NCBI GenBank assembly: GCA_003614675.1
Contig: ML002344.1
Span: 1 to 39,998 of the forward strand
DNA: 39,998 nt
Direction: 5' to 3'
Source: Dimargaris cristalligena
Lineage: Eukaryota
A program made the translations under genes and the position numbers. The notes under the pieces are model-generated. The model was not told the origin of the DNA and did not search any database. It saw only the letters and a program-made list of their open reading frames with translations. Each line of letters begins with the position of its first letter. Positions within the stretch are counted from its first letter, which is position 1. Of this stretch, positions 3,062 through 14,007 are shown in pieces.

Positions 3062-5228
3062 GGTAGGATAAATAGACGGGAGAGATAAACAATAGGGAGG
3101 GAGGGCGGTGGGACAGGGTGGTTGGTAAAAATTATTGGTGAGAGCGTCGCGCCAGGGGATGATAGGGAGGGGGGAGGGAGTGTGAGTAATAGTGGTTGTA
3201 GGGGGGAAGCTCTCAGGATAGGCTAAAGTCAGCGCTTTACAACGTCATGCAGCTGACTAGTGCGCGGGGGTAGAGAGTGAGAACGGGAGGGGCGTTAACA
3301 GTCTCTCAGCGGAGAAGTGCGAAAAGTTCCGTGTAGAAAACGACACTGAACCGAGAAGACTAGAGGGGATATGAAAAAGGAAGAAGGATTGGGGGATAAT
3401 ATCTGAAGAAAGGACGAATCAATTCGGGTGGATAACAACAATAGGGAAAGAGAGGACTTAGTTGGTTGGTTAATAATAGTAAGATATAACAGCGTTGGTA
3501 ATAATGGGTTGATGTAATCACCATAGTATATAGTAAACGCGAAAAAGGAGGAGGAATTCGCGAGTGGCTCGGCGGGTTAAGTAGACCCACCCCGCGGAAA
3601 ACCCTGATTGGGCTCTATCAAGCGACCCCCCGTATAGTATAGGAAGGGGTGTAGCAGTGAGTTGTCCTCCCACCCACTACCACAGGCTCAGCGTAAAATG
3701 AATCCAACCGGGGCAATGTGAGAGTCTATGCACTCCCAGTATTGGCGTGATAAGGGGCGAATAACGTTCGTTCGTACGTACCTACGCGGTCTCCACACGA
3801 CTGGGTGGAGGAATTGGGACTTAATCCGACAGTCGGAAAGCTTACAGATAAAGGGAGTATATCATATATAATCTGAAACCCCAAGGAAGCAGATGGCCGA
3901 GACGCAGTGAATGAGACAGGAGGTGGTCGCAATTAAAGAAGCGACCCGCAGTGGGGGAGGATTAATCGAAAGCCGGAAGTGAAACGGTTCCAAGTGTCTG
4001 GGAGGGAGACACTGTCCGAAACTGAACGGGTTCAAGCTTATTAAGCGGTGTTTTAACAGGGCAGTGGAAATACAAGAGAAACGCAGCAGGGCAACACAAT
4101 ATAGGGAAAAGAGGGAGCGGAGCGTCTTTGGGAGTGGCGTGCAGACTGGGCCATTTATATACAACGGATGCATATAGCAAGTGGGTGCATATAGCGAGAG
4201 GATTAGCGGACCAGGAATATATTTTTAGATGCGAATGAGATGCAGTTATTTCAATAGAGTGTGGGTGATCAGTGCATGACGGAAGAAGGCCCGATGGTCC
4301 TCCAGGAGGAGTAAAAATAGCTGGCTGGGACCAAGGCGCATATGTAAGAAGAGGAAGAATGTATGCGGGAAGGGTCAGTTGGGTGGGAAACCACACCCTA
4401 CCCTGTTGAAAAAGAGAGGGTTAGTTAGGGGATTGGATTGAGCTGGTAATAGACAGGGCTGGAACAATAGGCTGGGCCTGTGACTGGCCGAATTGGCGGG
4501 GATGGCCACCTGCAAGCCCCTCCCTTTTAAGACCCTAGGCTATTCCTCGTACAACCAAACTTTTCTGCCCACCGCTGTGTCTACCTGGAAGAATTTGGCT
4601 CCCCTTTTCGACTTTATCTCCGGGCGGTGTTCTTACGGAGGAAGACGCTGGTTCTATTACTGTTGCTATTCCCATACCCTAGGATATCTTCAGCCGGTTC
4701 TATACACTTGACCAGGGTTCATCACCATTCTGATACTCGGCAGAAAAAAGGGCCGACCATTCCGGCTTGAATCATTCCATCCGACCATGCCCTTTTTCCT
4801 TACTTGGCTACCGGCCGATGCTGGGGCCAGTATTCCACTAAAATCTAATTAAACTCCTTCTGTAAATGCACTAAACGACCAGGCATGCAAGGTTAGCCTC
4901 CGTGGCACGCCTTAAATACCGCTGGGTTGTCCCAGATCGAATTATCGGGTTGGCCGGGTGGCTGCGGAAGACTGATGTAACCAGAGGTCTCGGCAAACAT
5001 GCTTAGAGATTTGCCAAGAAGTTCTTTATTTCTATCAAAGCGACCGGGTACCTTCCGTTAATAACCCCCGGGCCCAATCAACCTACAGTAGAATCCGCTT
5101 TAAAGTCCGTCAAAGGAAACTGCGTAGCTTGGCCCGTAACGTGTTCTAGTCACGTCAAAGTAGTTCATTGCCAAATTATGCCACGGGGTATGTGTGTGAT
5201 TTCACCCCTGGCATGCTGGTATGGAAGA

Positions 5229-5361
5229 ATATGGGAGTAGTTCATCCAGGCTGTATAACGAAAAATCCATTACATTACTGGTTAAAATGGTTACTCCCGC
5301 ATACTCTCCCATACACAAATCATGTAAAACTTTATACAGCTGGCTTGGATTTCACCCATAT
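5229..5361 (+). mobile_element. MITE-like element, copy 1 (133 bp, short internal deletion)
   Basis: Starts ATATGGGAGTAGTTCATCCAGGCTGTATAA and ends TTATACAGCTGGCTTGGATTTCACCCATAT (imperfect ~30-bp terminal inverted repeats). Homologous to copies at 15478, 21013, 23923 and 26531. Confidence 0.8.
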
Positions 5362-8300
5362 CAACAAGGCCCACCCACATTGTACCCGGAATCCGGGTTA
5401 ATAGAAGCATAACTCGGGTGGAATATACTACAGCGGGTTGGATAGTGCTGAATAAAGCCCCATAAAACAGGGTCCGGTGGTGATAATATGCCCAGGGCAT
5501 GTGATAGTAACCAGTATCCTCGAGTATCTCTAGCACAGTTCTCCCGTAGGCATCTTTTGCGCTTTGGTAAATATCCCCTCTTTAAACCTTGTTTTTCTTT
5601 TTTTTTGCACCCAGTCAAGCCACTATACATACCCTCCGCAGGTAATGGGCAGTAGCCGCCGATAAATAAAGTAAAGGCAGGCTTACTGCAGTTGGGTATT
5701 GATTGATTACTTGGAACTTGTAGGGTTATCCTGGCCCCCATAGCGTGCTGGTCGCCCGGGTGCCACTCAATCAAATCCCCAAACCATCACAGCCACAAGC
5801 CCTCGGGTCTCACTGGGAGACTGGCCGAATAAACGGGCAGTGTCGGAAAGGTTGCCTCTACGAGTGATAGAGCGCCAATAAAAACAAGTCGTCCCTGGGA
5901 AACCCATTTGCATCCCTTAATAGACTGCCGCCTCAGTGTGTGTGAATCCCCATTTCCGCAATGTTTATCTCATCACCTGGCCTCTATTTATAGTTAGCGG
6001 ATTCCCAGCCTTTTTCGATTAGTCCTTCTTGAACGGGCTGTTATTTACTAACGGTTGGGCCTTGGTGAGTAATCGGCAATTTCATAATCGAGGGAACTAT
6101 AGTCCGGCGGGAATAAGCGATTCGGACGCACACCTCCACCTAAACCCTGGTGCCAAATAGTCGCAGCACGCTGGTCCTATCATACACCCGCTATGTTTTC
6201 AGGGCCGACCAGCTCTTTTGGACACCCTTTTCCAATAATACTACCATCAAGGAATTCCCAGAATGAATCACTCACTGGCCCTTGGCTGCAGCTAGGCCTT
6301 GGATCCTTAAACCAATTAAACCCCGCAACTGTATTTTAATACAGGGTATAGAGGCAATTTGGTCACACCAACCCCTTTTTTCTTCCTAACTTTCTTGTAT
6401 ATCAATCATGCCGATTCCCATGCAGAACCAAACTAAGCCCCAGTATTTAGTCGTGAGGCAGGGCTGCCTCACTTCGCCCGGGGTGGAGGCGGGTATGTCT
6501 CCCCCTCCCGAGTTATACTTGGTGAAGAAAAAATAATATTACTGCATCCCAAATCCCAAACCCACACTGTGCTGTATCAATCCCCCGCCAATGGCCGTGG
6601 TTCTTTTTTTAGACACCTGCGTCTAGTTGGGCCAACAAAGGATGGTCGGTGAGAACTCCACACTGCCGTCAGCTGATCCAGGCTAATTATATACCGGCCA
6701 GTAGTGGGGATTTTCCGCTGAAATCTGACTGGATGCCTGGGCTATCCAGCCTTGATTGGCATATTAATCACTGTAGAATAGTTTAATTATAGAATCACCC
6801 CTCTTAGTCTAAATTGTAAAGAGAAATCGGTGTATATATATATATCAACGCATCGATAATCGAAGGTGTTTGTTCCACACCCTGGGCAACTACTTAATCG
6901 CCGGGACTTCCATCACCACTAGCAATCGGAGTAGATTCATCGGGTTAGGAAAATAGTCGGAGAGTCTTTTCTCATGCCTCTATGAGGCGACCAAACCCGT
7001 TGCTGGTCGGCATTACTGACAATTATAAATCATCCCCAACTCGGTGTGGGAAATCCCAATCTCTCATTTGTAGGGGTGAATGTTGTCACTGTGAAGGGTA
7101 GATGTTTCGTCAATAGCGTCCACCTGCTTGGTGCAAAATAGCCCCAATACGTAGGGTAGAGCCGCCGGCGGTGGAAAAGACTGGGTAGGTCGGGTTTGGT
7201 CCAGGTGGTTGAATGGAACCCGATATTTTTTAATGTGGAATTGGTGGGCCAGCTCAGTGCTCTGAATTGGAAGTATACAGGGTTAAGAACGCTGGATAGC
7301 ACACCCACGCGTTGGCCAGAGGTAAGGCTGCTTTGTAAATGGAGGGGGTTTGTTAACACGGCACTGTGGAACGGTCCTGGGTGGAATACTACGAATAGAT
7401 TGGATAAAAGGCAACCCACGGTATATGAAACGTCGCATATCCCCCCTAGGGATGGCGTTTACCGTGACCACCACAGTCGATGCCCGACTTAGTAAGGCCA
7501 AACTCACTATGTTGTATGAATTGGAGGTAGTCAACCGTAATTCAATGAGGTTGGTACATAACAGGTTGGTTAGTTTAATGAGTGGATACTGCATGGTTTA
7601 CTAGCCACCATTACCTGGCAAATGGGCTCGCGATTGGTCAGTAATAGGGGATGACAGGAGCGGGTAAATTCCGAGACTGCGGTTGTATGGGGGGCTAGAG
7701 TAAGAGTGGCAAAACCGGGATATCAGCATGCTATGCTGCCTCATGTAAATGTTGGGTCTAAGCGGTGTAAGGTATACTTTCAGGCCCCAGGGGTTGGCCC
7801 TGCAATAACGCTGCCAAATTACCCATGGTAATGCAGTAAGTGCGGCATGCAATCAAAGTCCCGGCTATGGGCAACCAGATAAATATACCAGATCGTCTAT
7901 ATCCGGAGGATCCTGTCTGTAGAGTCGAGCCCCCGCTTCTTTTTCTTTTTGAAATTCGGCCGGTGATTAATGCCCCGATTTACCTTAACCACCCCGGCTT
8001 GGTGCTCCTAGTCGTGCAATTGATATCGAGTAGTGTAGTTTGTGGTTCAACTGGGTTCACGGCCATCGTCCTGTACCATTTTTGTTTAGACATCAACTGA
8101 ACCCAAAGCAAGGCGTATGCATTCACCAAGATCGTCAAGGCCACCAGCCGCCGTGAAGGGTTGCTGGCTCTAGAAGAATACAGCCAGTAAGTCGACATTG
8201 GCCCGGGTAGGTTGCGTCTCTGATTTTGCTGTTGGGCCTCACATAGTATCTCGGATAATATGAGCGTCTACCAATGGCCCAGTTCATTGCCATTGCTCAT

Positions 8301-10461
8301 GGGGAGTTCATATACTAGTGGATTCTGGCCTGTAGTATAGCTGGCCAGATGGATAGTATTGTTAACTCGCTGTTTTAGTTAGCCTAGGGTGAATCCAGCG
8401 CACTTGGTTACCCAGCCCGTATATCCGTTTACTGAGGAACGGGGTCGCCCGATTCCCGTTTTTTATCATGTTCCCTGTGAAGTAAAACCCACCTAGTGTG
8501 CCTACATGTACTTGGCGCATAGGCCAATCCTAAATTATACTTTAATTGTTGGTCAATGGAGTGTTAATGGCAATCAGCTGTCGGCCGAGAGTCGAACTCT
8601 GCGACATGGCCGGTAACGGTGGATTCATCGGGGCCCTATATATGTATGGTTTTTCAGGAATATTCCCACTGTTACACATACCAGTGAATGTCGCTCTTTC
8701 TCGGCTAGTCAAGGCCGACTACAAGTCCGAGATATCCGAGAACCTAAGCTGGGCCAGTATACCAATGCGGTAGCCGAGACGTGGGGATCGGAATAAAACC
8801 ATCGGATCGAATTCGGCCGGATCCACGGGACGGCAGATGCACCCAAGGGTCTAGGTAATCAACGAATGTAATAGGGGCGAATCACCGAAGCGGAAGGTCA
8901 ATAGTCTGAGAGGAGAGGCATCGGCTTAGATCCAGTCGATGTACCCTTTTATTCAGCCCTGGGGTGTGATTAATAGGAGACCTATACTCCACCGCGACTC
9001 CTTTTAATGCGCCAGGGGAGCCCGGTGAACAGATTGCATGCAACAAATTCGCCGGCTGAGTGGAATGATGAGGTGTGTGATACGATCAAGGGGTCAGGGC
9101 CGAAGCAGGCACTGTCAATTATATTGCACAGTAAATCACTAGTTGATGGCCATCGGCCCTAACAAAGCCCCAGGTAATCGGTACTGCCGATATCAGATGA
9201 GTGGTGTGGGTGGGATGACAGCCTGTTTCAAGACCTACAGGCAGATGAGCAACGAAGGTCGATCAAGGGGTTGCGAAGCCCAGTTCCGTGATCGGAATTT
9301 GCTGTTCCACACTACCGATAATAACTATTTACCCCGCTTCCGCGTAGACTCCGACGCTTGCCATCAACTGACAGCCCCTAGATGAACATAAAAGAGCGGA
9401 ATTAAAGGGAAATAACCGGTAATTTAGAGGCAGGTCCAGTTTTCTACCTATTATTGTGGACCGCCATCCATGAACGGTGGAATCAGCGGATCCCCTGGAC
9501 GAGGTATAGGCAAATGGTAAAGATAAATCGGAAGTGGTGCCCATTTCCTAATAGGACAAATGATACTGGTTTATGGATTCGTTTAAATTAGGTGAAATAA
9601 GTGGTGTCTGAAGATAAGTAAAGTAGATCTCGCTCACTATGCCAACCGGAGCGGATACTCTATACTAATCAAGAAGGTGGTATTTGTGTTGGTATTCTAG
9701 AGTGACCCATAGTATGTTATTGGCTTTTCGAAGTTTCCACCAAGACCACTTGGTCGGTTGTTACGGACAGTGTTATGGTCCTGGTCAACAAATTAGGGGA
9801 TCTCTAATAGTGGCTCAGCTATCAGTGAGAAACACCGACTGATTGTACTATTGACTGGAAGTTCCGACCAGTATGCTTGTCAGGGTGAAGGCCGTCAGGC
9901 AAATCAGCTTTCCAATCAGAATAGGACACTGAAGCACAGTAAGTAGGGGTCACGGAATTCTTAAAAATACCTTATTCTGTACGTATTTCCATCAATGCCC
10001 AATATTTAGGTGTCCTGATAAATTTAGCGACTACCAGCAGTTGTCGCCTCTCAGAATAGTATCACCAGTGCAATTCTCCAACTCTAGATTGAATTATTTA
10101 TAAGCACATTAGCCCTTTATATTTTGTAACTTTCTAGACAATCCACCAGGTCTAGTATTGGGGAGGGGGGCAATCTGCCTAGTTGTCCGACAAATCACAA
10201 GAACCTACCATTACTACACATGGCCCAATCGAGCCTATGGTTAAGTAAAGTGGCACTCGCTTGGGCAATTTTGTGGTACTGGAAATTAATGGCAAAGTAG
10301 AAAGAGGCACCTATGCGCCAACTATAGAACAAATCCTGTTTAATAACTGTATAATATATGTATATATAACTGACCCCAGGTAGGACATATTTCTTACAAG
10401 TTGCTCATCGTTCCTATTAGGAGTATCGCAATCACACCAGTTTCCAACTAAATTGAGAAAA

Positions 10462-12353
10462 TTAATAATATTGCGATTCGGCAATCTGTAGCAAATGGCT
10501 TTCTAGTTCCGGGTCTTCCTCTTCCAACTGGAACAGGGAATTGTTGAAAATGCTATCGGATGTATCCACGCTCCGGGCCCCTGTGGAGAGGCGGTGGGAG
10601 GTTGGCGCTGCGACAGGCTTGGCGCTGGAGCCTTGCTGGATCAACCATCGGGCCTGGCTCTGTAAGCCCCGCGTAATGAGATAAATACTATACCAAATCA
10701 AAGTGATTAGTTCCTAATGGCATTTGCCATTGGCTCAACAATTTTATATTCGAGACGCCCAGAACCGTTCCAGGTTATACTTCATAAACCAATCTAACCA
10801 TGGTGTGGCCTTTAAACCCCCACTTAAAATCTGTTTCAAAAACTACATGGACTAATAGCCAACCGAACTTACCTTGATAGTGTGGGCGAAGTGTTCCAAA
10901 ACCATATTGGTCCCGTTAGTGGGGATTCGCTTCATCATTTCTTGAAATAGCCGGATAGTATCCACAGGGTTCGAGCATCTGCACCAACGTATTGTAATAA
11001 AACCCACCCCAGTATATTTACAAAAGGTAGTCCAATTCCATGGAAACATTAAATCGTTAGTGAGGCAGGAGTAATGGGTTTTGCGATGCCCCTAGTTCAA
11101 CTAAAGGGGCGAATAATGTCGATAATTGGGACGTGAATGGCCTCGTGTGTGAAGTATACTGCAGTCATTGTCCATATGTCTTACCGTGCTATCCCTCTAA
11201 GACCTTCTTTTTCGTCCAGGCTCAGACTTACTGCCGGAGTGGGCAGAGAAGTTGTAATATATGTCGGGAGTGGCTTAAGGGGTATATGAAGGCTTGTTCC
11301 CGGCTGGTCTACATTCCAGAAGGACCATTGTATGTTTACGAGTGGTAGAGACGGTGGGGCGCTCTGCTCGGGTAAGGGCTGGTCGTATTCTGTGGGGGCC
11401 GCGGTCAATACGCCGAGAATGAACGGGTCCGAGTGGAACCCATGCAGGCCACAGGATAGCAGGAAGTCCCGTAAATTACCCGTTAGAGTCATTTCCCGCA
11501 TGGATGGATAGTTGGGCGACTGACCTCGGTAATGGTAATAACCCACGACCCGCTAGTTTGAAATGTAAATAAATAGAGAGAGATAAAACCACATGAACTA
11601 TGGCATTAGTTTACAACTAGCAATAAGGAAAGTGATGCATAATTCGGTCATATAATTTTGGATGAAGATGTCACTCTTTGGAGCAAAGGGGTGGGCGTAT
11701 TAGGTGATTAGTATACCTTGTCTCTGATTCCCCAAGAATGCAGTATGTCGCCATCAATTGACCCATCGGGGTTGTAGAACTTGGGGTCGGAACGGTTCCA
11801 TGGGTGGTAGTCGCTGATCTCTAAAAGTGGCCAAATCGGGGTAGCATTTGAATCAATTAACATATATTTATATATAGGCACCCAATATATCCCATTAGCA
11901 CCCAAATTCACTGGTTTTTTTTATAAAACCCCTATTTACGTTAAAGCTCTAGTTTCTCCCCATTAATTTCGGGAAGCCGTGTAAATGGTACAGAGGTATA
12001 GCCGGACTTACCCATCGAGTGCGCCGGTTGGAACTCGGCACGCCCATCATCGCTATCGTCGGTAATGCCAGATGTGACATGGTTCATGTGTATGACCCGT
12101 CCTATCAGAAATCCTTCCTAATAACCACGGTCAGTATAGCCAGTAACAAGGTTAAAGTATCAATGAGTACTGGATAAATACCATTACTTATGAAGTGAAG
12201 GGCCAATGCGGTCCGGTGTAAGGCTTGCTCGGCTCCCGCTGGAGTCGGTGAGGCTTAACTTACCTGAACCTCGGGGGACTTTTCCAAGTCTTGGGAGAGC
12301 CGCTCGAGAAGCGCGGGCGCAAGGTTTAGGGTAAATGGTGTGGCTTCGGCCAT
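10462..12353 (-). CDS. ABRAXAS/FAM175 (Abraxas1/ABRO1)-like MPN- pseudo-DUB scaffold protein, ~363 aa, 6 exons
   Basis: Exons 12353-12264, 12117-12012, 11820-11717, 11552-11232, 11091-10873 and 10713-10462, all GT...AG and in frame (1092 nt). Spliced protein: MAEATPFTLNLAPALLERLSQDLEKSPEVQEGFLIGRV...GITDD...EISDYHPW...KFYNPDGSID...RVVGYYHYRGQSPNYPSMRE...FILGVLT. This matches the ordered human Abraxas1 motifs EGFLLGEV / SITD / FSFYNSSGEVN / VVGWYKFRR / MTFRE / VFLLLT. Exons 5-6 rest on splice signals and frame only. Confidence 0.78.
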
Positions 12354-12849: not shown

Positions 12850-14007
12850 ATGGCCGATCCCCAACCCGAATATGTCGACCGGGCCAAGCAGATCCTGGCT
12901 CAAGACACCAAGGTGGTTCCCGAGTTTTGGGTCAAGAAGTACCGGCAGGAAGCTTCGAAGAACTGGTAAGGGACCTTACATTATCACCTAAAAAATAATA
13001 CGTTATTTGGCCAGACTGATAACCATCCCTAAGAGGTCTTTACTAACGCCCCATATATTCATTTGATAACCCCTCCCCCATTCCCTATCCCACCAAATAG
13101 GGATAAATTCTACAAGCGTAACACTACCAATTTCTTCAAAGACCGGCACTGGATTGAGCGGGAGTTTCATGAGCTCCAATCGCAAAATGGTAACGAGCAA
13201 AGCAAGTTGGTAAGACCACAGCCCAATTACAATGTTTCTATATATTTGGATATGGCATATATATCCAATTTTCAAAACGGGTATTTTCGAAGGATCACCA
13301 TGATATAGGAATTACCTGCAGAGAAAAACCAACACCGGCTAATCGATGTCTAACTTATTGGGTTTACGCTGCCTGTGTTTTTTTTTATATACCTTCACAC
13401 TTGTGGGGTGTCAACCATACCATGCGTATAATAGACCCTTTTGGAAGTCGGCTGCGGGGTCGGTAATTTCCTGTTTCCACTACTCGAATCCCACCCCAAC
13501 CTGTTCGTCTACGCCTGTGACTTTTCGTCGCGGGCAGTAGGTCTAGTCCAAGCCAACCCCCTCTACACGGCCTCCGACCGCTGCAAGGCCTTCGTGTGTG
13601 ACCTGACGCAGGACGCGTTAACCGACTCCGTCCCCCCCGCCACCGTGGATCTCATCTCGATGATTTTTGTACTGTCCGCCATTCCCCCCGAGAAAATGGA
13701 CCAGGCCGTCGCCAACGTATTCGCGGCGCTCCGGCCCGGGGGTAAAGTCCTGTTCCGGGACTACGGGCTTTACGATGCCGCCCAGCTCCGGTTCAAGAGT
13801 GGCAGCAAATTGGAGGATAACTTTTACGTGCGGCAGGACGGTACCATGGCGTATTATTTCAGCCGTGCGGAGCTCGAGGCCCTCTTCCGTCGGGCCGGGT
13901 TTGTACCCGAGATGGTGGATAATATTTTCCGTAAAACTACGAACGTCAAGCAAAACTTGGACGTGGATCGTATTTTTGTGCAGGCCAAATTCGTCAAACC
14001 ATTGTAA
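12850..14007 (+). CDS. METTL6: tRNA N3-methylcytidine (m3C32) methyltransferase, METTL6/METTL2/Trm140 family, ~265 aa, 3 exons
   Basis: Exons 12850-12965, 13101-13209 and 13435-14007. Motifs KNWDKFYKRNTTNFFKDRHWIEREF, LEVGCGVGN, YACDFS, IFVLSAI, LFRDYGLYD and YVRQDGT are family hallmarks. The short N-terminus and C-terminal RIFVQAKF favour the METTL6 subgroup. Confidence 0.93.

What the first reader, a model, noticed from the sequence alone, without database searches (positions are those of the whole stretch)
10462..10476. Abraxas-like protein ends in S-Q-Y-Y-stop, an H2AX-like candidate phospho-BRCT ligand
Seen: the last codons are GAA TCG CAA TAT TAT TAA (E-S-Q-Y-Y), after an acidic stretch (LEEEDPELE). 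Known: human Abraxas1 ends in pS-P-T-F, bound by BRCA1 tandem BRCTs; gamma-H2AX ends in pS-Q-E-Y, bound by MDC1 BRCTs; SQ is the ATM/ATR site. Inference: a serine four residues from the end plus a terminal aromatic is kept, but as an SQ site. This would make it Abraxas1-like rather than ABRO1-like, and possibly a direct Tel1/Mec1 substrate that recruits a BRCT protein.
Basis: partly seen in the sequence, partly recalled or inferred. Interest (0 to 1): 0.7.

Follow-up and report, generated by a model that had tools for sequence, protein, structure and literature searches.

The report
Fungal Abraxas with possible BRCA1-docking tail
An early-branching fungus carries a worn-down relative of the human DNA-repair scaffold Abraxas that ends in four residues that could, once phosphorylated, dock the fungus's own BRCA1-like protein, but the few other fungal relatives found do not share this ending, so it is about as likely to be chance.

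Summary
The codons are there: minus strand 10476-10462 reads S-Q-Y-Y-stop and ends a six-exon gene identical to a Dimargaris cristalligena record (323 aa; Abraxas MPN domain, Pfam E 3e-8; best fold match the BRCA1-A complex). A codon model supports this frame up to the stop; no RNA was available. An S-x-x-F/Y end is rare here (1 of 102 predicted C-termini). The genome supplies the partners the idea needs: a RING + tandem-BRCT BRCA1-like gene keeping the R-T-x-K phosphopeptide residues, an MDC1-like gene, BRE, ATR, and H2A ending S-Q-E-M. Against: only 2 of 6 full-length homologues end S-x-x-F (both hemichordates; 0 of 2 fungal or fungus-like); the end fails the S-P-x-F rule; there is no long flexible tail. 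'Abraxas1-like rather than ABRO1-like' is ill-posed, since that split is a vertebrate duplication. BRCC36 and RAP80 were not found, and the BRCC36-activating Asn is missing, hinting at a scaffold without its enzyme. Odds that the end is a real phospho-BRCT ligand: about one half. The scan's earlier notes hold no such finding on other DNA.

The parts
12264..12353 (-). Exon 1 (ATG at 12353), start of the MPN- domain
   Evidence: coding score +7.6 in frame
12012..12117 (-). Exon 2 (EGFLIG strand of the MPN- fold)
   Evidence: aligns to human Abraxas1
11717..11820 (-). Exon 3 (KFYN block)
   Evidence: aligns to Abraxas1 and to homologues
11185..11552 (-). Exon 4 (VVGYY..R, SMRE; rest of MPN-). No Asn between residues 180 and 226, where the BRCC36-activating Asn should lie
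   Evidence: profile homology is detectable only to residue 153
10873..10978 (-). Exon 5, low-confidence helices standing where the family coiled coil lies
   Evidence: AlphaFold helices 227-240 and 246-268, pLDDT 46-57; coding score +2.4
10462..10659 (-). Exon 6 as annotated: end of helix, disordered linker, acidic stretch, terminal helix, S-Q-Y-Y, stop
10477..10515 (-). D307-P308 followed by a predicted helix (residues 308-319, pLDDT about 40)
10462..10476 (-). S320-Q321-Y322-Y323-stop, the candidate phospho-BRCT ligand
   Evidence: background rate
10553..10687 (-). Rival reading of the last exon: acceptor AG at 10689-10688 gives another frame, 44 codons, ending ..GYIR-stop, without the motif
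   Evidence: splice score as good as the annotated site but the frame is disfavoured, -2.8 against +8.3

Best explanation
The gene is the single, strongly diverged Abraxas/KIAA0157-type scaffold of D. cristalligena (shown). Its protein ends S-Q-Y-Y-COOH (shown at DNA level, not by RNA). Most likely mechanism (inferred): the catalytically dead MPN domain binds BRE; after DNA damage or replication stress ATR phosphorylates S320, an acidic-flanked SQ site; pS320 sits in the S-G / R-T-x-K pocket of the BRCA1-like tandem BRCT, the terminal Tyr in the groove between the repeats, and the free carboxylate on the Arg equivalent to R1699. As in animals the scaffold would tether or sequester BRCA1, but under direct PIKK control rather than through a proline-directed, constitutive site.
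For: Family: Pfam PF21125 E 3.4e-8; top PDB sequence hits Abraxas1; Foldseek top hit BRCA1-A, E 1.5e-14. Family precedent for a terminal S-x-x-F outside vertebrates: 2 hemichordate homologues end S-P-V-F. Rarity: 1 of 102 and 0 of 102 C-termini. Reader: G000:C154 has a RING whose best PDB hit is BRCA1 (E 6e-13) and a BRCT whose best hit is BRCA1 (E 4.7e-9), with R-T-K-K-Y opposite human R-T-L-K-Y; three GT-AG introns give a 526-aa RING-BRCT-BRCT protein with S-G in the first BRCT strand. S1655, G1656, K1702 bind the phosphate and R1699 the terminal carboxylate of Abraxas (PMC4747905, passage). BRE present (Pfam E 1e-7; Atlas 0.93). ATR present (E 1.9e-115). H2A ends S-Q-E-M, so terminal SQ signalling is in place.
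Against: 4 of 6 full-length homologues lack the end, among them the Cunninghamella protein, which stops right after the coil, and the fungus-like P0003. Human BRCA1 wants F at +3, mostly P at +1, and no large residue at +2 (PMC4728184, sections 3-5 read); S-Q-Y-Y departs at all three. The serine directly follows a predicted helix, whereas human Abraxas has a long unstructured tail (PMC7692841). The second BRCT of the BRCA1-like protein matches nothing in PDB at E<=10, so its +3 pocket could not be checked; two pocket positions seen differ (L1701 to K, F1704 to L). RAP80 and BRCC36 were not found. No basic cluster like a nuclear import signal besides RDKR in the MPN fold.
Confidence: 0.42

Rival explanations
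1. The ending has no BRCT role. It is the accidental end of a shortened, fast-evolving scaffold: S-Q-Y-Y caps a terminal helix (possibly the counterpart of the Abraxas helix 277-287 that binds RAP80, which also follows a D-P and ends in Phe), in a complex that has decayed after losing BRCC36.
For: No motif in 0 of 2 fungal or fungus-like full-length homologues. Human Abraxas has D-P-Q at 273-275 and a helix Ile277-Phe287 that binds RAP80 (PMC6695476, passage); P0001 has D307-P308 and a helix 308-319, which would put Q321-Y322 near Phe287. The protein is only 21-29% identical to all homologues and lacks the Asn and the T-H-x-Y strand motif that 6 of 6 full-length homologues keep. Looser motifs arise in up to 2.8% of ends.
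Against: The helix homology failed every test: no PDB hit for the tail, no significant local alignment to 5 homologue tails (shuffle p 0.21-1.0), no PDB hit for a tail profile. Chance must hit both S-Q and a terminal aromatic (about 1 in 4000) in the one family known for such an end, in a genome that kept BRCA1.
Confidence: 0.38
2. The end is a gamma-H2A mimic read by the MDC1-like protein or another histone-tail BRCT, not by BRCA1: it would tie the scaffold to damage chromatin in place of the missing RAP80, or compete with phosphorylated H2A.
For: G000:C53 encodes a long disordered protein with a C-terminal BRCT pair whose best PDB hit is MDC1 (E 2.2e-10; T-G and R-R-T-V-K kept; second repeat Pfam E 2e-9). 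MDC1-type pairs read the phosphorylated C-terminal tetrapeptide and its carboxylate (PMC8651625, passages). S-Q-x-Y fits that pattern better than S-P-x-F.
Against: No precedent found for Abraxas binding MDC1.
Confidence: 0.12
3. The transcript does not end this way: the last intron uses the acceptor at 10687, the first AG after a CTAAT branch-like site, giving a frame that ends ..GYIR-stop.
For: Both acceptors score alike and poorly on a splice profile from 49 predicted introns (14th and 16th percentile); both have a short AG-free zone, seen in 4 of 49 introns. No RNA check was possible.
Against: Over the rival frame's own span the annotated frame wins by 11.1; in held-out coding DNA the shifted frame beat the true one by that much in 0 of 607 windows. 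The 31 codons that would be 3' UTR score +4.6 without a stop, seen in 11 of 3038 non-coding windows against 68% of coding windows. Four other in-frame acceptors (10713, 10653, 10635, 10527) all still end S-Q-Y-Y.
Confidence: 0.06

Closest known systems
Abraxas1 (FAM175A/CCDC98) of the vertebrate BRCA1-A complex
   Same: MPN- fold and sequence blocks; serine four residues from the end and a terminal aromatic; BRE and a BRCA1-like protein in the same genome.
   Different: S-Q-Y-Y, not S-P-x-F; no second serine two residues upstream like S404; about 55 residues after the last long helix against about 150 in the 409-aa human protein; no equivalent of Asn170; RAP80 and BRCC36 not found.
KIAA0157, the single pre-duplication scaffold of invertebrates (ant BRCC36-KIAA0157 structure; hemichordate homologues)
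   Same: Single-copy scaffold, co-orthologous to Abraxas1 and ABRO1; next-best fold matches; hemichordate members end S-P-V-F.
   Different: Those keep the activating Asn and a clear coiled coil; P0001 has neither in recognisable form.
ABRO1 (FAM175B) of BRISC
   Same: Same MPN- family; weaker sequence hit (E 0.26 against 0.002), a gap too small to assign orthology.
   Different: ABRO1 lacks the terminal phospho-motif (PMC3315748, passage).
gamma-H2AX / gamma-H2A tail read by MDC1, Mdb1, Crb2, Brc1
   Same: Terminal S-Q-x-hydrophobic with free carboxylate; ATR and an MDC1-like reader present.
   Different: Not a histone; +2 is Tyr rather than Glu; the fungus's own H2A ends S-Q-E-M.

Membership tests
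Abraxas/ABRO1/KIAA0157 MPN- scaffolds | N-terminal MPN domain of family PF21125 without JAMM residues | tested here: met
   Pfam 33.7 bits over cut-off 27; fold; YHYRG where JAMM enzymes have H-S-H-P
Abraxas/ABRO1/KIAA0157 MPN- scaffolds | Coiled coil after the MPN domain that bundles with BRCC36 | tested here: inconclusive
   Low-confidence helices 227-268; profile match stops at residue 153; best match to the coil's second half lies in the tail, 10554 on, reached by 1.5% of 400 random regions, one of four blocks tried
Abraxas/ABRO1/KIAA0157 MPN- scaffolds | Asn that activates BRCC36 (Asn170 Abraxas, Asn164 ABRO1; PMC6695476) | tested here: not met
   No Asn between 180 and 226; N-[LI] present in 6 of 6 full-length homologues; depends on the exon 4 model
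Abraxas1 proper (BRCA1-A) | C-terminal pS-P-x-F | tested here: not met
   End is S-Q-Y-Y: S at -4 and a terminal aromatic kept, P and F not
Abraxas1 proper (BRCA1-A) | Orthology after the vertebrate duplication | tested here: not met
   A fungal single-copy gene (1 match in G000) predates the split described in PMC7692841; no tree was built
BRCA1-A complex | BRCA1 with RING and phosphate-binding tandem BRCT in the genome | tested here: met
   BRCT2 and the +3 pocket unverified
BRCA1-A complex | BRE in the genome | tested here: met
BRCA1-A complex | BRCC36 in the genome | tested here: inconclusive
   Not found by PF18110, PF01398, PF14464 or two motif scans; the assembly has 2220 contigs and unknown completeness
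BRCA1-A complex | RAP80 in the genome | tested here: inconclusive
   PF18282 0 candidates; the search rang nowhere, so it does not show absence
BRCA1-A complex | MERIT40 in the genome | not tested
   No query or family model was at hand
Phospho-BRCT ligands of PIKK type | S-Q four residues from a free C-terminus | tested here: met
   (DNA level)
Phospho-BRCT ligands of PIKK type | Motif conserved in orthologues | tested here: inconclusive
   2 of 6 full-length homologues have S-x-x-F, none S-Q; no close orthologue from another species found
Phospho-BRCT ligands of PIKK type | Phosphorylation and phospho-dependent BRCT binding | not testable with these tools
   needs bench work

The most novel reading that the evidence does not exclude
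D. cristalligena has lost the deubiquitinase BRCC36 and RAP80 but kept an Abraxas-BRE adaptor whose only job is to hold a miniature (526 aa) BRCA1 through an ATR-switched, gamma-H2A-like S-Q-Y-Y end: an enzyme-free BRCA1-A in a fungus, showing that the Abraxas-BRCA1 link is older than animals or was invented twice, and can be separated from ubiquitin editing.
Probability: 0.15. Interest if true: 0.72.

Novelty: new variant of a known kind. Interest (0 to 1): 0.45.

Why it matters
The Abraxas-BRCA1 phospho-contact is described from vertebrates, and a 47-species survey dated FAM175A to just before vertebrates and found the BRCA1 complex lost in model fungi (PMC3969565, passages). BRCA1 in early-diverging fungi is already in print (PMC11061109, passages); my searches showed no paper on a fungal Abraxas or its tail. 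If the tail binds, the link reaches back to the fungus-animal ancestor or evolved twice, and a small RING-BRCT BRCA1 with a 323-aa scaffold would be a compact system for asking what BRCA1-A does without its enzyme. If it does not, what remains is a new, divergent fungal member of a known family.

Tried and rejected
RNA: no RNA holder listed, so no reads were laid; no evidence either way. Metagenome locus scans: 111 and 182 pattern matches, none confirmed. Protein searches found no orthologue from another Dimargaritales species. Single-sequence fold of the BRCA1-like last exon: pLDDT 33, useless. Homology could not choose between four models of the last exon (79.5-79.9 bits). A by-eye heptad fit favouring the rival acceptor was dropped after the codon tests. 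An alternative donor GTAAGT inside exon 4 near 11232 was considered: with the exon 5 acceptor it runs into a stop and was not adopted; that segment's coding score is negative (-6.7), so it stays open. Tail as the RAP80-binding helix: three negative tests. The H-S-H-P-[HN]-I scan gave 13 matches against 8 for the control; none reads like a JAMM enzyme. One search's Asn print-out showed wrong stretches; one search replaces it. Earlier scan notes: none for this genome or sequence; one unrelated Abraxas-MOV10 chimera.

Full report
What is there. The finding lies on the minus strand. GAA TCG CAA TAT TAT TAA begins at 10479, so S-Q-Y-Y-stop fills 10476-10462. It closes a six-exon gene (12353-12264, 12117-12012, 11820-11717, 11552-11185, 10978-10873, 10659-10462). 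A search with exon 4 returned a 323-aa protein, P0001, named by NCBI as a hypothetical protein of Dimargaris cristalligena on a 39998-base contig, and a 234-aa model from another record of the species, P0002. Exons 1-5 translate to residues 1-258 of P0001. Both records end AESQYY. The gene has one match in the genome.

Family. P0001 carries Pfam PF21125, the Abraxas MPN domain (E 3.4e-8, residues 17-134). Its five PDB sequence hits are four Abraxas1 entries (E 0.002-0.021) and ABRO1 (E 0.26). The AlphaFold model (mean pLDDT 61) has a confident MPN fold to about residue 194, weak helices at 212-268, a disordered linker and a last helix at 308-319; Foldseek ranks BRCA1-A first (E 1.5e-14), then ant BRCC36-KIAA0157 and BRISC. 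The Atlas agrees (0.93). Abraxas1 and ABRO1 arose from one scaffold by a duplication before cyclostomes (PMC7692841, passage), so the fungal gene is co-orthologous to both.

Is the ending real? The last intron is the weak point. Two acceptors compete: 10659 (annotated) and 10687, the first AG after a CTAAT, which gives another frame ending ..GYIR. On a profile from 49 predicted introns they score alike and low (16th and 14th percentile). No RNA holder was listed. A codon model trained on 71 long ORFs from 400 kb of the genome (true frame best in 97-98% of cross-validation windows) gives +11.3 for the annotated frame against -19.6 and -27.2, +8.3 against -2.8 over the rival frame's span, and negative values after the stop. 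In 400 kb not used for training, the shifted frame beat the true frame by 11.1 in 0 of 607 windows, and 11 of 3038 non-coding 93-nt windows were stop-free and scored as high as the last 31 codons, against 68% of 870 coding windows. Other in-frame acceptors keep the same end. I put the S-Q-Y-Y end at about 94%. One loose end: the coding signal in this frame starts about 30 bases upstream of the annotated acceptor, so the junction itself may be misplaced.

Is it more than chance? Among 102 predicted C-termini from 800 kb, 1 ends S-x-x-[FY] (0.46% expected from composition) and 0 end S-Q-x-[FY] (0.025%); [ST]-x-x-hydrophobic is 2 of 102 (2.8% expected). For a gene whose family is known for a terminal pS-P-x-F this is a real coincidence, but it is one gene in one species.

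Conservation. Searches returned 8 homologues outside the species; two are fragments (P0007, P0009) and were left out of the count. Of the 6 with apparently full ends, the two hemichordate proteins end S-P-V-F, the spider protein and an unnamed look-alike end without a motif, the Cunninghamella echinulata protein stops right after the coiled coil (..QLKNRR), and the unnamed, fungus-like P0003 ends ..DLLMQ. Their ends are gene predictions that I could not check. No orthologue from a related genus was found. Conservation therefore gives no support within fungi, and some support for a terminal motif older than vertebrates.

Partners in the genome. A BRCT search gave 14 matches on 9 contigs and a second model added one contig. 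C154 encodes a RING whose best PDB hit is BRCA1 (E 6e-13; next family 1.6e-8) and a BRCT whose best hits are BRCA1 (E 4.7e-9; BARD1 1e-3). Three GT-AG introns give 526 aa with RING, S-G in the first BRCT strand and R-T-K-K-Y opposite human R-T-L-K-Y. In the human BRCT-Abraxas structure S1655, G1656 and K1702 hold the phosphate, R1699 the terminal carboxylate, and L1701, F1704, N1774, M1775, L1839 form the +3 pocket (PMC4747905, passage). R1699 and K1702 are kept by alignment; the S-G match is my inference from position; L1701 and F1704 are changed; the second repeat matches nothing at E<=10 and did not fold. C53 is MDC1-like (E 2.2e-10). BRE is on C82 (Pfam E 1e-7; Atlas 0.93). Of four FATC matches on three contigs, one is ATR (E 1.9e-115); I read the others as TOR and SMG1 from their translations (recalled); no ATM was seen. 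The one H2A found ends S-Q-E-M.

What is missing. BRCC36 was not found: PF18110 0 candidates; 12 JAB matches on 10 contigs that I read as Csn5, Rpn11, eIF3f, eIF3h, Rpn8, Prp8, Csn6, an AMSH-like and two MYSM1/MPND-like proteins (names recalled, not tested one by one); 4 W-Y-H-S-H-P matches, all on contigs already listed. RAP80's UIM model found nothing. The assembly may be incomplete. Independently, the scaffold lacks the Asn that activates BRCC36 (Asn170; PMC6695476, passage; human context): P0001 has no Asn between 180 and 226, while 6 of 6 full-length homologues have it. The two absences fit each other and suggest a scaffold without its enzyme; both rest on negative evidence and on the exon 4 model.

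How it most likely works. Shown: an MPN- scaffold ending S-Q-Y-Y, in a genome with BRCA1-like, MDC1-like, BRE and ATR genes. Inferred: the MPN domain binds BRE's first UEV domain, as in mouse BRCA1-A (PMC6695476); ATR phosphorylates S320; the BRCA1-like BRCT pair binds the end (0.42) or an MDC1-type reader does (0.12). Against: human BRCA1 takes F at +3, mostly P at +1 and no large residue at +2 (PMC4728184); the serine abuts a predicted helix; fungal homologues lack the end. The main rival (0.38) is an accidental end of a shortened, decaying scaffold; the idea that it caps the RAP80-binding helix failed three tests and is a lead only. A wrong last exon gets 0.06.

Literature seen. Passages: PMC7692841, PMC4747905, PMC6695476, PMC8651625, PMC3315748, PMC11061109, PMC3969565. 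PMC4728184: parts 1 and 2 of 4, which hold the whole main text. BRCA1 in early-diverging fungi is reported (PMC11061109); FAM175A was dated to just before vertebrates (PMC3969565). Searches listed no paper on a fungal Abraxas tail; most subscription papers are not in the library. Supplements not seen that may bear on this: Figure S1C of PMC6695476 (history of the two scaffolds) and the species table of PMC11061109.

Verdict. Observation confirmed; interpretation partly supported. A new variant of a known kind: a divergent fungal Abraxas with a plausible but unconserved and untested phospho-BRCT end, next to a true BRCA1-like gene. Interest 0.45; 0.72 if the enzyme-free, ATR-switched BRCA1 tether (probability 0.15) proves true.

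Noticed in passing
L015 (G000:C154), about 86-2253 +: Compact BRCA1-like gene, 526 aa: RING, about 150-residue linker, tandem BRCT with the phosphate-binding residues kept and a strongly diverged second repeat.
   Followed up: partly
L012/L030 (G000:C53): MDC1-like gene: long disordered region and C-terminal BRCT pair, closer to human MDC1 than to Brc1 among PDB entries.
   Followed up: partly
L002:565-1995 + (G000:C82): Intron-free, divergent BRE homologue of 477 aa; the Atlas does not hold this exact sequence.
   Followed up: partly
L013:1156-3174 - (G000:C360): Unidentified protein with a long coiled coil and a C-terminal BRCT region keeping S-G and R-T-F-K, another possible phosphopeptide reader.
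   Followed up: no
L040:1222-1620 + (G000:C5): The only H2A found ends S-Q-E-M, with Met in the last position.
   Followed up: no
G000, whole genome: No BRCC36 and no ATM or DNA-PK FATC match were found, while two MYSM1/MPND-like JAMM genes are present (C194, C1281); may reflect assembly gaps.
   Followed up: partly
window 10687-10660 -: Coding signal in the final frame begins about 30 bases before the annotated acceptor; no canonical junction joins it to exon 5 in frame.
   Followed up: partly
80 stretches of G000: Predicted introns are long for a fungus (median 211 nt) with long AG-free zones before the acceptor (median 79 nt), in a set biased to clear cases.
   Followed up: no
window 12853-14007 +: A methyltransferase gene (METTL6-like by my reading; Pfam Methyltransf_12) starts head-to-head about 500 bases from the Abraxas-like ATG.
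   Followed up: no
window 3300-10350: About 7 kb with almost no coding signal on either strand, in an otherwise gene-dense contig.
   Followed up: no
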